Virus record (IMG/VR): IMGVR_UViG_3300023283_000076 | Coordinates: 64,001 to 128,000 of that record | DNA length: 64,000 bases | DNA from: a virus | Lineage: Duplodnaviria; Caudoviricetes | Direction: 5' to 3' (one strand) | Shown here: piece after piece, positions 4,956-64,000 of the stretch | How positions within the stretch are numbered: position 1 is the first letter of the stretch | How the letters are laid out: each line of letters begins with the position of its first letter | Notes under the pieces: model-generated | What the model was told of the DNA's origin: nothing | Databases searched by the model: none | What the model saw: the letters and a program-made list of their open reading frames with translations, nothing else | Position numbers and translations under genes: made by a program

Positions 4956-5708
4956 TTGAAATCATTTGATAGTTACTATATTCAGGCGTTTGAAGATGGG
5001 TCATGGAATGAAGTTTATGACCCGCATGTAGCAACTGTTTTCATATCAGAAAAAGCGGCAGAGGATTTTGCAAACAACAAAACCGATTTTAGTGAATATA
5101 TTACACTAATTAGTGGTTCTGATAATATTTTTGCAGAATACAATATTTTTGATGAATGGGTAGCTAATGGAATGATTCGTCGTCATTTTGAAGCTATGAA
5201 TCCTACATATAATGTCATGTATGATCCTGAAAAGCATGATTGCATGGATGTTCTGAAATGGAATTATCAGTTTGCTATCAAGGGCGATGATATGATGATT
5301 CATCAAGAAGTTTATAATTCATGGTGTAGTAGAATATGGGACCATTTCAATTTTATAAATGACTTCAACTCATATTGTTCAGGAGATTATACAGAAAAAT
5401 TTGTGAGCTTCGAAATCAAGGTTGATAGGAACGCAAAACTCGAAGACTTCAAAAAAGAATTAGATTTGGTTCTTGACAATTTTGAATTCAATTATGTAGA
5501 TAAAGATGGTGGGTTGATTATCAGTATCTTTGAACATGATCTTTGTGAAACTCGTTCTATGGTTCTCATTATGAATGATCGTGAAAACGATGAATGGAGT
5601 ATTGAAAACGAAAGATGTGGCTCTGCTTCACCTGTAATAAATCGAGAATCATTAGAAAAATGTTTCAAAAAAATTCGGAAAAAATATTGGTATTATAGTT
5701 ATTCATAG
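4956..5708 (+). CDS. hypothetical protein
   Basis: 250-aa co-oriented ORF, TTG start uncertain. Confidence 0.65.
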   Translation: MKSFDSYYIQAFEDGSWNEVYDPHVATVFISEKAAEDFANNKTDFSEYITLISGSDNIFAEYNIFDEWVANGMIRRHFEAMNPTYNVMYDPEKHDCMDVLKWNYQFAIKGDDMMIHQEVYNSWCSRIWDHFNFINDFNSYCSGDYTEKFVSFEIKVDRNAKLEDFKKELDLVLDNFEFNYVDKDGGLIISIFEHDLCETRSMVLIMNDRENDEWSIENERCGSASPVINRESLEKCFKKIRKKYWYYSYS

Positions 5709-61978: not shown

Positions 61979-62296
61979 ATGATTACTAAAAAAGAATTTA
62001 AACAACTATTAAATAATTTAAAAGCATCTGCTAAAAAACGTAACATCCCCTTTGAATTAACAACGGAAGACATAGATTATATAGGAATACCATTAACATG
62101 TCCAGTATTAAACATACCTATATATTTTAACAAGGGTCAACCGAAAGATAATTCGATATCATTTGACAGAATAGATTCAAGTAAAGGATATACTCGGGAT
62201 AATGTGGTAATAGTATCACACAGAGTTAATAAACTTAAATCCAATGCGGCATTCGAAGAAATGCAGAAAATATTTGAATTTTATAAAGATCTATAA
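61979..62296 (+). CDS. His-Me finger (HNH-like) endonuclease-like protein
   Basis: RNIPFELT, TCPVL, SFDRIDSSKGY..DNV.IVS.RVN.LK. Confidence 0.75.
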   Translation: MITKKEFKQLLNNLKASAKKRNIPFELTTEDIDYIGIPLTCPVLNIPIYFNKGQPKDNSISFDRIDSSKGYTRDNVVIVSHRVNKLKSNAAFEEMQKIFEFYKDL

Positions 62297-62343
62297 AAAA
62301 GCCCCCATCCGGGGGCTCTCGGTCGGTATAACAGAGCTAAAAA

Positions 62344-62685
62344 CTAACTAGCTCCGCATGTCCCCTCACCACATGCTCCTTCTTCATCTTCTGATTCTTC
62401 ACCACAAGATCCCTCACCGCATGATCCTTCTTCATCTGCAGATTCTTCACCACATGCCCCTTCACCACATGCCCCTTCAGAATCTTCACTATCGCCTTCT
62501 TCACCACAGGAGCCTTCACCACAAGAACCTTCCTTGTCATCTTCTGTAGCATTTAGTGGCATGCCAGTAGTCTCCGCCATGAATGGATTAACGCCATTTT
62601 CTAAACCTAGTTCCGAGGCCGATGCTACTCCTGCCATAGTGGTTAGTCCTGCTAGTGTTGCAATTGTTAATTTATTAGACTTCAT
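62344..62685 (-). CDS. HvfA/BufA-like RiPP metallophore precursor (EGxCG repeats)
   Basis: signal peptide, NPF motif, eight EG(S/A/T)CG units in acidic linkers. Confidence 0.75.
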   Translation of the reverse strand: MKSNKLTIATLAGLTTMAGVASASELGLENGVNPFMAETTGMPLNATEDDKEGSCGEGSCGEEGDSEDSEGACGEGACGEESADEEGSCGEGSCGEESEDEEGACGEGTCGAS

Positions 62686-62788
62686 ATTATACTTCTCCTT
62701 TTTTGTGTTTTTAACTTATCGTTCTATTAGAATGTTCATATTACTATAAAGTTCAATTAATTACCATACGTAATTATACATATGATGA

Positions 62789-63229
62789 TTAGTGAGCTAA
62801 CTTATATGGCTTTATTATATTATACAATTCCACATCCTTTTCGGTTAAATGTGGGTATGTATACATATTCAAATCCATATTATTATTATATATGGACTCA
62901 GGTAGCACAATCCCAACGGAGGTTAATGCACCATTTAATGCGCCCTTTTCCTCTGTAAAATATGCAACAGGATAATCCGTGCCTTTATTTGTATTGATAT
63001 TCAACATATTGATCAAATCTTGTAAGTTTTTCTGCGGGCCTCCGTTTAAAAGGATCATAGTTTTATCTTCTTCCATCCATCGATTAAATATTTTACTAGC
63101 CACATTACTCGTAACCTGATTATATTTGGTCGCCATCACTTGAATAACATGGGCTGCTTGTATTCCATGTTGTATGGAAGAAAGATACATGTTTCCGAAA
63201 AAATATCCTATGCAATTTTCATTATTCAT
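62789..63229 (-). CDS. PTH2-like fold phage protein
   Basis: LSSIQHGIQAAH, KTMILLNGG, F.EE..ALNGALT.VG. Confidence 0.55.
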   Translation of the reverse strand: MNNENCIGYFFGNMYLSSIQHGIQAAHVIQVMATKYNQVTSNVASKIFNRWMEEDKTMILLNGGPQKNLQDLINMLNINTNKGTDYPVAYFTEEKGALNGALTSVGIVLPESIYNNNMDLNMYTYPHLTEKDVELYNIIKPYKLAH

Positions 63230-63509
63230 ATTCTAAACCTTTTATTTTAATTTCTCTATCAAGCGGTATGGTTTGACAATTAAATTCTTTTAAGACTGCA
63301 CCTTCAGCGAAAGCTATAGCCCAACAATCTTCTACCGTAAGAACAGGTGAGTTTTTGCAATAGGAATATGCGACTCTTTTATCCAGTGTAGCTCTTATTA
63401 ATGCTTGAATGATTGCTTGTTCCGGTGTTTTCTTTGATGGATCTATAAACGTTTGATATATAAGATAAATATAACCAGATTCTTCAGTATTTAAATTTTC
63501 TTTGGTCAT
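63222..63509 (-). CDS. hypothetical protein
   Basis: overlap-coupled ORF. Confidence 0.55.
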   Translation of the reverse strand: MTKENLNTEESGYIYLIYQTFIDPSKKTPEQAIIQALIRATLDKRVAYSYCKNSPVLTVEDCWAIAFAEGAVLKEFNCQTIPLDREIKIKGLEYE

Positions 63510-63780
63510 TTTTTCTTACCCAATTTACGAATACCATTAGCTTATCATGAGATCTTAATTTTGTCAAGTTATTATATTCTTTAGCTAAATCCTTGTTCGA
63601 TATAAATTTATGGATAGCCCCGTGACAATCATGGCAAATAAAAATTTTGTTATTCTTCATTTCTTCAAGAGTAAATGTTTTTTTACACCATTTTTTGTTG
63701 TGCATTTCCTTTGGTATAAGATGGTGTTCCGTAAGTTCTAAATTACGTTCACATAATTCACATTTTTCCATTGATGGCAA
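63484..63780 (-). CDS. small HNH-like protein
   Basis: CELCER..LTEHHLIP...CHDCH.AIH. Confidence 0.75.
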   Translation of the reverse strand: MPSMEKCELCERNLELTEHHLIPKEMHNKKWCKKTFTLEEMKNNKIFICHDCHGAIHKFISNKDLAKEYNNLTKLRSHDKLMVFVNWVRKNDQRKFKY

Positions 63781-64000
63781 CTATCCTTTCCTTTAAAATT
63801 AGTAACTATTGGACCGTGGTAGTCGGTCGATACACTATCCATGGGAAGAATTCATGGGCAGGCTGCATTAAACTATTAAAACTCGTTATCATACAATTTC
63901 TTCAACTTTGTGAAAAGCGGGGGAGGCAGGCCCCCGCTCAGTATTTTTATACAATATATTCACTACTAATTTCCGTTATATTCATCGGTGTAATATCACC

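What the first reader, a model, noticed from the sequence alone, without database searches (positions are those of the whole stretch)
62344..62685. Orphan HvfA/BufA-like metal-binding RiPP precursor in a phage
Seen: Sec signal, NPF motif and eight EG(S/A/T)CG units in four pairs with very acidic linkers. Known: bacterial EGKCG-repeat precursors (HvfA, bufferin-type) are Cys-modified by DUF692 (MNIO) enzymes with DUF2063 partners and bind copper. No such enzymes flank this gene in the window, and the Lys is replaced by S/A/T. Inference: the phage borrows the host maturase to buffer periplasmic copper, competes with the host precursor, or uses the unmodified peptide as a metal sponge.
Basis: partly seen in the sequence, partly recalled or inferred. 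Interest (0 to 1): 0.7.

Follow-up and report, generated by a model that had tools for sequence, protein, structure and literature searches.

The report
Phage-borne copper-peptide precursor without maturase
An uncultured giant phage carries a well-kept gene for the secreted, cysteine-repeat precursor of a bacterial copper-binding peptide (HvfA/oxazolin type) but none of the enzymes that mature it, so it probably feeds its own substrate into the host's maturation machinery, which has not been described for a virus.

Summary
Window 62344-62685 (minus strand) encodes a 113-residue protein with a Sec-type signal, an NPF leader motif and eight E-G-(S/A/T)-C-G units in four pairs. It passes NCBIfam's HvfA-family domain model (49 bits; cut-off 19.5).

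The contig is a 270-kb T4-like jumbo phage. It holds no MNIO, DUF2063, DoxX or DUF2282 gene.

The gene looks functional. It has its own ribosome-binding site and terminator, phage-like codon usage, and a syntenic copy in a second phage with dN/dS 0.14.

Its nearest cellular relatives are Wenzhouxiangellaceae precursors, also Lys-free and acidic, which sit directly before MNIO and HvfC genes. All phage 5-mers keep the Glu-Gly-x-Cys-Gly pattern that is invariant in 596 units of MNIO-linked precursors. That pattern is relaxed in Colwelliaceae genomes that lack MNIO.

Best reading (about 0.5): a substrate-only phage gene, matured in trans by host enzymes into a periplasmic copper-binding thiooxazole peptide. 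Main rival: it acts unmodified.

No paper, cultured phage or other clear viral contig shows the same thing.

Earlier in this scan, orphan HvfA-like genes were noted in several bacterial genomes and on this same stretch, but in no other phage.

The parts
62344..62685 (-). hvfA-like gene, 113 aa plus stop: precursor of the HvfA / Buf_EGKCG / captophorin family
   Evidence: ORF list. NF050137 49 bits against a cut-off of 19.5. dN/dS 0.14 against the copy in L004. GC3 0.24, like neighbouring phage genes.
62617..62685 (-). Sec-type signal peptide, residues 1-23, with predicted cleavage after A-S-A
   Evidence: Read from the sequence and a hydropathy profile. No SignalP was available. The equivalent N-termini in bacterial relatives align.
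62533..62616 (-). Leader/spacer, residues 24-51, with N-P-F at 62581-62589
   Evidence: Phe35 is invariant in the 15-row alignment A2. NPF recurs in most of the 79 bacterial homologues. The sister phage has NLF.
62353..62532 (-). Core, residues 52-111: four pairs of E-G-(S/A/T)-C-G joined by acidic linkers, with a period of 16-18 residues
   Evidence: The sister phage lacks exactly one 16-residue repeat unit (48 nt).
62695..62700 (-). Shine-Dalgarno AAGGAG, 9 nt before the ATG
   Evidence: Read from the sequence.
62293..62321 (-). Intrinsic terminator of the gene: a G+C-rich 7-bp stem (62300-62306 / 62311-62317), a 4-nt loop and then a U run
   Evidence: Fold of -19.1 kcal/mol, z -2.07. In L004 the stem is kept through different bases. 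The automatic terminator scan did not list it.

Best explanation
This is a functional phage copy of an HvfA-family ('Buf_EGKCG', oxazolin/fontiphorin, captophorin-type) precursor peptide. It is carried as a single-gene cassette by a T4-like jumbo phage that probably infects a halophilic gammaproteobacterium of the Xanthomonadales/Wenzhouxiangellaceae kind. Proposed mechanism (inferred): the peptide is made in the infected cell. Before export, the host's own MNIO (HvfB-type) and its DUF2063/RRE partner (HvfC-type) convert its eight Cys to 5-thiooxazoles. The Sec system then exports it and signal peptidase cuts after residue 23. The very acidic 90-residue product binds Cu(I) in the periplasm. 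The phage therefore needs to supply only the consumable part to keep, or raise, copper buffering in the cell while it replicates. Shown here: the gene, its family, its integrity and selection, the absence of maturase genes on the contig, and conservation of the substrate motif. Inferred: host identity, modification in trans, copper binding, and benefit to the phage.
For: Family: NF050137 scores 49 bits against a cut-off of 19.5, with 4 stretches, and there are 203 homologues, many named HvfA family.

Real, selected gene: it has an SD and its own terminator. GC3 is 0.24, like phage genes, against 0.65 in Wenzhouxiangella hvfA. A syntenic copy lies in a second phage fragment, L004, with 22.5 synonymous against 13.5 non-synonymous differences, dN/dS 0.14.

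No maturase on the phage: PF05114, PF09836, PF07681 and PF10048 are all absent from the 270 kb, and tblastn with Wenzhouxiangella HvfB and HvfC finds nothing.

The closest cellular relatives (P0004-P0007, 50-60% identity) all sit in nth-hvfA-MNIO-HvfC loci.

Substrate determinants are kept. In 62 MNIO-linked precursors, 596 of 596 units have Glu at position 1 and 592 of 596 have Gly at position 2. The phage has 8/8 and its sister 6/6. Colwelliaceae whose genomes lack MNIO have Glu in only 24 of 37 units.

Published enzymology: FonBC needs at least two repeats, tolerates A, T or R at position 3, and fails with Arg at position 1 (PMC13097082).

Precursor and MNIO co-occur in 2516 of 2583 genomes (PMC12452194 Table 3).

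Unlinked precursors with EGSCG cores occur naturally in Woeseiaceae, where the MNIO-HvfC-DoxX operon has no precursor of its own.

Host lead: the best cultured TerL matches infect Xanthomonas and Stenotrophomonas. That phage group has a much lower GC than its hosts.
Against: No experiment or expression data bear on it. The host is unknown, so whether it has an HvfBC pair is unknown.

The leader outside the core is only weakly similar to any bacterial leader (E >= 0.002), so recognition by a given host's partner protein is not assured.

Four of five Colwelliaceae genomes keep an EGKCG protein with no MNIO at all, so members of this family can persist without the enzyme.

Unmodified HvfA also binds 2-3 Cu(I), though weakly (PMC11252979).

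The loci used for the motif statistics were picked with patterns that contain E-G-x-C-G-E-G, which biases them somewhat towards the consensus.

The contig is estimated to be 79% complete.
Confidence: 0.5

Rival explanations
1. The peptide works unmodified. It is exported as a disordered, highly acidic chain with eight thiols, and it binds copper or other soft or divalent metals directly through Cys pairs and carboxylates, independently of any MNIO.
For: EGKCG proteins persist in Colwelliaceae genomes without any MNIO, in a conserved Dus - gene - SDR context. Unmodified HvfA retains about 2 Cu(I) (PMC11252979). 67 of 2583 genomes with such precursors lack MNIO. No maturase lies on the phage.
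Against: The MNIO-less bacterial copies have relaxed the Glu1/Gly2 positions, whereas both phage copies keep them perfectly. Unmodified HvfA did not compete with BCA for Cu(I). The closest relatives are all enzyme-linked.
Confidence: 0.27
2. It is a decoy or competitor. The phage peptide occupies the host's HvfBC, or a sensor of the pathway, and thereby lowers or redirects production of the host's own metallophore.
For: It has the same core motif as host-type precursors, and it would meet the same enzymes if the host has them.
Against: A decoy would not need a working Sec signal, eight intact Cys units or an intact C-terminus, all of which are conserved between the two phages. No benefit to the phage is evident.
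Confidence: 0.07
3. The phage has its own maturase genes in the roughly 21% of the genome that is not on this contig, so the system is complete but split.
For: CheckV completeness is 79%. Split layouts exist in bacteria.
Against: An alignment-based scan of 2.9 million viral contigs found no HvfB-type MNIO, although it relied on only two peptide patterns. In 62 of 80 bacterial loci the MNIO is directly adjacent.
Confidence: 0.06
4. It is a recently captured passenger gene with no role for the phage.
For: It is a single small gene next to a mobile HNH-type endonuclease gene. The repeat number differs between the two phages.
Against: Codon usage is fully phage-like. dN/dS is 0.14 with 22.5 synonymous changes. 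It has its own SD and a terminator kept by compensating changes.
Confidence: 0.04

Closest known systems
HvfA-HvfB-HvfC (oxazolin) of nontypeable Haemophilus influenzae (PMC11252979; bioRxiv 10.64898/2026.07.17.739211)
   Same: A Sec signal, paired E-G-x-C-G units and a match to the family domain model NF050137. The product of that system binds Cu(I).
   Different: The phage gene is not the orthologue: equivalog NF050188 scores 37.6 bits against a cut-off of 95. It has no adjacent hvfB or hvfC, S/A/T instead of Lys, acidic instead of basic linkers, and a viral genome around it.
FonA/FonBC (fontiphorin) and the 'captophorin' class (PMC13097082)
   Same: The same 5-mer repeat logic. The published substrate rules are all met by the phage core: at least two repeats, Glu tolerated and Arg forbidden at position 1, A/T/R allowed at position 3, and a small residue at position 5.
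   Different: Ser at position 3 was not among the tested variants. No enzymes are encoded with the phage gene.
Wenzhouxiangellaceae / Lysobacterales nth-hvfA-MNIO-hvfC(-doxX) loci (L005, L019, L026, L107, L109)
   Same: These are the nearest cellular sequences, 50-60% identical. They share EGSCG/EGTCG cores, acidic linkers, four repeat pairs, a length of about 111 aa and an NPF..AE leader.
   Different: They are always followed directly by MNIO and HvfC. GC3 is 0.65 against 0.24. Their leaders are only weakly similar to the phage's.
Stand-alone Buf_EGKCG genes of bacteria (PMC12452194; Woeseiaceae and Colwelliaceae loci found here)
   Same: The precursor gene is unlinked from any maturase. In Woeseiaceae the cores are EGSCG and the enzymes lie elsewhere.
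   Different: In those cases the partner enzymes, if any, are in the same genome. Here the two would be in different organisms, virus and host.
Bufferins BufA1 (DUF2282) and BufA2 (Buf_6/12Cys) (PMC11626156, PMC12452194)
   Same: Sec-exported, MNIO-modified, copper-buffering peptides.
   Different: They belong to a different precursor family. The protein has no DUF2282 match and neither does the phage.

Membership tests
HvfA family / Buf_EGKCG / Lys-Cys captophorin precursors | Repeated paired 5-mers [E]-G-x-C-G (NCBIfam domain NF050137, KCGExKCG_twice) | tested here: met
   49 bits against a cut-off of 19.5, four stretches. Eight units, all E-G-x-C-G.
HvfA family / Buf_EGKCG / Lys-Cys captophorin precursors | N-terminal Sec signal peptide | tested here: met
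   By inspection and hydropathy only: a basic N-region, a hydrophobic core at residues 6-21, and A-S-A at 21-23. It aligns with the signals of relatives. No dedicated predictor was available.
HvfA family / Buf_EGKCG / Lys-Cys captophorin precursors | Gene linked to an MNIO (PF05114) and a PME-type 1 partner (PF09836) in the same genome | tested here: not met
   Absent from the 270,653-bp phage contig. 62 of 80 bacterial relatives have them adjacent. The condition could still be met through the host, which is unknown.
HvfA family / Buf_EGKCG / Lys-Cys captophorin precursors | Lys before the modified Cys | tested here: not met
   S, A or T in all eight units. This feature is not essential: NCBI-named members in MNIO-linked operons lack it, and FonBC accepts A or T.
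HvfA family / Buf_EGKCG / Lys-Cys captophorin precursors | Cys converted to 5-thiooxazole, and Cu(I) binding | not testable with these tools
   Needs co-expression, mass spectrometry, UV at about 305 nm and metal titration.
HvfA equivalog (NF050188, the Haemophilus-type orthologue) | Full-length score above the curated cut-off | tested here: not met
   37.6 bits against a cut-off of 95.
Bufferin BufA1 (DUF2282) | Match to PF10048 | tested here: not met
   No Pfam family matched the protein, and there is no PF10048 match in the phage.
Phage (Caudoviricetes, T4-like jumbo) origin of the contig | Phage hallmark genes and gene content | tested here: met
   A virus record of 270,653 bp. The TerL homologue is 49-51% identical to those of the jumbo phages Xoo-sp13, XacN1, CM1 and RAS14. 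The window holds 18 tRNA genes. Neighbouring genes match PHROGs.

The most novel reading that the evidence does not exclude
This would be a 'substrate-only' viral auxiliary gene: a lytic-type jumbo phage encodes just the precursor of a RiPP metallophore and relies on the infected cell's MNIO/partner pair to mature it. The phage thereby takes control of periplasmic copper buffering during infection. It would be the first viral member of the captophorin/oxazolin class and the first case of a RiPP pathway split between a virus and its host.
Probability: 0.45. Interest if true: 0.7.

Novelty: new variant of a known kind. Interest (0 to 1): 0.55.

Why it matters
MNIO-made thiooxazole peptides are a very common but only recently recognised copper-stress system of Pseudomonadota, present in about half of the reference genomes (PMC13097082). 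Their physiological role is still open.

A phage that keeps only the precursor under purifying selection would show three things. The peptide, not the enzymes, is the limiting and consumable part. Metal buffering matters during infection. RiPP maturases can be used in trans by foreign substrates.

It also gives a natural Lys-free, all-acidic substrate for testing enzyme tolerance. And it suggests a class of viral auxiliary gene that BGC-centred genome mining cannot see, because that mining starts from the enzymes.

Tried and rejected
- **Pfam and PHROGs on the protein:** no match.
- **Single-protein and alignment searches of IMG/VR for relatives:** none confirmed. tblastn confirmation may be weakened by the low-complexity sequence.
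- **Exact DNA pattern scan of IMG/VR:** 13 stretches. L015 is the antisense of a PSPQA-repeat protein, and most of the others are short chance frames. Only L018 is a family member, an EGKCG plus EF-hand chimera.
- **INPHARED tblastn:** no match.
- **Related phages through the upstream neighbour gene:** none found in IMG/VR.
- **HvfB-type MNIO in IMG/VR:** none, but only two peptide patterns were used.
- **Complex prediction** of the phage peptide with Wenzhouxiangella HvfB and HvfC: no verdict, because a control scored as high. This is not evidence either way.
- **AlphaFold2 of the peptide:** disordered, pLDDT 44.7, so no fold search was run.
- **Sequencing runs:** two DNA holders from one study and no RNA holder listed. 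Nothing can be said about expression or habitat.
- **Shared early-gene leader ACATTCACTGATA:** not present upstream of this gene. No T4-type late box TATAAATA lies between 61422 and 64000. Only weak sigma-70-like matches were found, so timing is unresolved.
- **Leader-only BLAST to trace the donor:** uninformative, E >= 0.002 for all bacteria.
- **DNA search of three Wenzhouxiangellaceae/Lysobacterales genomes with 20 kb of phage DNA:** it hit only hvfA itself, with no spacer-like match.
- **Phage-encoded copper proteins (Sod_Cu, cupredoxin):** none.
- **Paper search with 'bufferin':** swamped by the word 'buffering'.

Full report
**Observation.** The minus-strand ORF at 62344-62685 encodes 113 residues.
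- Residues 1-23 look like a Sec signal: Lys2 and Lys5, a hydrophobic stretch, and A-S-A before Ser24.
- N-P-F lies at residues 33-35.
- Residues 52-111 hold eight E-G-x-C-G units in four pairs, with x = S,S,A,A,S,S,A,T. The linkers consist almost only of Glu, Asp, Ser and Gly.
- The mature part has 28 acidic residues, one Lys, eight Cys and twenty Gly.

**Family.** NCBIfam's domain model for the HvfA family (NF050137, KCGExKCG_twice) matches at 49 bits against a curated cut-off of 19.5, in four stretches. The orthologue-level model NF050188 scores 37.6 bits against a cut-off of 95. Pfam and PHROGs have nothing. A word-indexed search of 5.8 billion proteins gave 203 homologues, several named 'HvfA family ... 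RiPP metallophore' by NCBI. The protein is a member of the family but not the Haemophilus orthologue.

The chemistry behind the family name has since been revised. The Cys residues become 5-thiooxazoles, and the class has been named captophorins (PMC13097082; bioRxiv 10.64898/2026.07.17.739211). The original assignment was oxazolone/thioamide (PMC11252979).

**Context.** The window lies in a 270,653-bp IMG/VR virus record, estimated 79% complete, with 34.5% G+C.
- The window alone has 18 tRNA genes.
- The neighbours of the gene match phage families: phrog_3668 upstream and an HNH-type endonuclease, phrog_3322, convergent downstream.
- The contig's large terminase is 49-51% identical to those of the jumbo phages Xoo-sp13, XacN1, CM1 and RAS14.
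- The contig contains no MNIO (PF05114), DUF2063 (PF09836), DoxX (PF07681) or DUF2282 (PF10048) gene.
- tblastn with the Wenzhouxiangella HvfB and HvfC proteins finds nothing.

**Is it a working gene?** It has AAGGAG 9 nt before the ATG. It also has its own terminator, a G+C-rich hairpin followed by a U run.

Its third-position G+C is 0.24. Neighbouring phage genes range from 0.18 to 0.34, and Wenzhouxiangella hvfA is at 0.65. So it is not a recent import from a high-GC genome.

A 3.4-kb contig from another sample (L004, 35.8% G+C) carries the same gene order: phrog_3668 gene, hvfA-like gene, terminator, convergent HNH gene.
- The two copies differ by 22.5 synonymous and 13.5 non-synonymous changes, giving dN/dS 0.14.
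- They also differ by one clean 48-nt repeat unit, so the second phage has six units.
- The terminator stem is kept through different bases.
- The gene's dS (0.45) is far below that of its flanking genes (1.8-2.5). I cannot explain this. Recent exchange between phages is one possibility.

**Relatives.** After the sister phage, the best matches are 111-112-residue proteins of Wenzhouxiangellaceae and a Lysobacterales MAG (50-60% identity over the aligned length). They share the same four-pair layout, EGSCG/EGTCG units, acidic linkers and an NPF..AE leader. Every one whose locus I could read lies in nth - hvfA - MNIO - HvfC(-DoxX).

Lys-free cores are therefore normal substrates in nature. Wenzhouxiangella L020 and Thioalkalivibrio L049 have none or almost no Lys at that position and are still enzyme-linked. 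In vitro, FonBC accepts Ala, Thr or Arg at that position, needs at least two repeats, and is blocked by Arg at position 1 or by anything larger than Ala at position 5 (PMC13097082).

Outside the core, the phage leader is only weakly similar to any bacterial leader. The donor lineage cannot be fixed, and part of the likeness to halophile proteins may be shared acidic composition.

**Orphans in bacteria.** Of the 80 best bacterial loci, 62 have the MNIO directly downstream and 59 have HvfC. The rest fall into three groups.
- Some are truncated loci.
- Some have the enzymes elsewhere in the genome. In Woeseiaceae the cores are EGSCG, and the only MNIO-HvfC-DoxX operon of genome G006 has no precursor of its own.
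- Colwelliaceae carry the gene between Dus and an SDR gene. Four of five of these genomes have no MNIO at all by family model or by protein query. The fifth has only a DUF2282-type operon.

This agrees with the published count of 67 MNIO-less genomes among 2583 that carry such precursors (PMC12452194).

The motif statistics separate the groups:

| Set | Glu at position 1 | Gly at position 2 |
|---|---|---|
| MNIO-linked precursors (62 loci) | 596 of 596 | 592 of 596 |
| MNIO-less Colwelliaceae (4 genomes) | 24 of 37 (Lys in 10) | 30 of 37 |
| This phage | 8 of 8 | 8 of 8 |
| Sister phage (L004) | 6 of 6 | 6 of 6 |

The loci were collected with patterns that contain the motif, which biases them towards the consensus. 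Even so, the contrast fits the published finding that a basic residue at position 1 blocks processing. The phage copies look like maintained substrates, not relaxed leftovers.

**Host.** Three weak leads point the same way.
- The nearest cultured TerL relatives infect Xanthomonas and Stenotrophomonas.
- The nearest cellular HvfA-like proteins are from Wenzhouxiangellaceae and a salt-flat Lysobacterales MAG.
- An earlier, unchecked note of this scan calls the phage a salt-pan phage with Xanthomonas-like Fur boxes.

The low G+C is no obstacle. A 41.5-kb stretch of Xoo-sp13 has 40% G+C, although Xanthomonas genomes are about 64% G+C (my own knowledge). All Wenzhouxiangellaceae loci seen here encode the enzyme pair.

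**Mechanism.** I think the most likely reading (about 0.5) is maturation in trans. The phage supplies a precursor that the host's HvfB/HvfC-type enzymes convert in the cytoplasm. Sec exports it, and the product buffers or captures Cu(I) in the periplasm.

The logic would resemble that of cyanophage psbA (my own knowledge). After host shut-off, the phage re-supplies the component that is consumed, while the catalytic machinery persists.

The main rival (about 0.27) is action without modification, as the Colwelliaceae case allows and as the weak Cu(I) binding of unmodified HvfA suggests. A decoy role, a maturase in the unsequenced fifth of the genome, and a functionless passenger are less likely, for the reasons listed under the rivals.

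**Novelty.**
- The MNIO landscape paper does not mention phages or viruses. Searches for captophorin, oxazolin or bufferins, and for phage-encoded RiPP precursors, gave no such case.
- INPHARED has no match.
- In IMG/VR, the only other family member found by an exact-pattern scan is an EGKCG plus EF-hand chimera on a 27-kb, 57% G+C contig of uncertain nature.
- No HvfB-type MNIO was found in IMG/VR.

The protein is a new member of a known family. Its setting, a precursor alone in a lytic-type jumbo phage, is a new variant.

**Limits.** Nothing here shows expression, modification, metal binding or the host. The complex prediction gave no verdict and the structure prediction gave only disorder. 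Both are listed under what was tried.

Noticed in passing
L063, L064, L069, L037 (Colwelliaceae loci; gene at about 4990-5400 of each): Colwellia, Cognaticolwellia and Thalassotalea carry an EGKCG-repeat secreted protein in a conserved Dus - gene - SDR - MGMT context. Four of five genomes have no MNIO gene at all. In these copies the first residue of many 5-mers has changed from Glu to Lys. It is a lineage in which this 'precursor' apparently lives on without its enzyme.
   Followed up: partly
L105 (Woeseiaceae genome G006, contig 25) and L070: The only MNIO-HvfC-DoxX operon of this genome has no precursor gene in front of it, and the EGSCG-type precursor lies on another contig. It is a natural split layout that implies maturation in trans within one cell.
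   Followed up: partly
window 62344-62685 versus L004 2303-2596: The hvfA-like gene is far more alike between the two phages (dS 0.45, 88% nt identity) than the genes on either side (dS 1.8-2.5). The signal-peptide codons are almost identical. This could reflect recent exchange of the cassette between phages or a constraint at the RNA level. It remains unexplained.
   Followed up: no
L018 11399-11845 (IMGVR_UViG_3300042010_000252, 27 kb, 57% G+C): [quoted passage not shown] No MNIO-sized ORF follows the gene, but most of the stored 13.8 kb was not scanned for MNIO. Whether the contig is really viral was not checked.
   Followed up: partly
window 62293-63940, minus strand: Four small genes lie between two intrinsic terminators (63916-63938 and 62300-62317): a 98-aa Cys/His-rich protein, a 95-aa protein, a phrog_3668 'hydrolase' and the hvfA-like gene. 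Only weak sigma-70-like promoter matches and no T4-type late box are present, so they may form one early or middle transcription unit.
   Followed up: partly
window 61979-62296 (+): A 105-aa HNH/endonuclease VII-like gene (phrog_3322) is convergent with the hvfA-like gene and is conserved at the same place in the sister phage (81% aa identity). Its PHROG relatives include proteins annotated as Srd anti-sigma factor or sigma-70 decoy.
   Followed up: no
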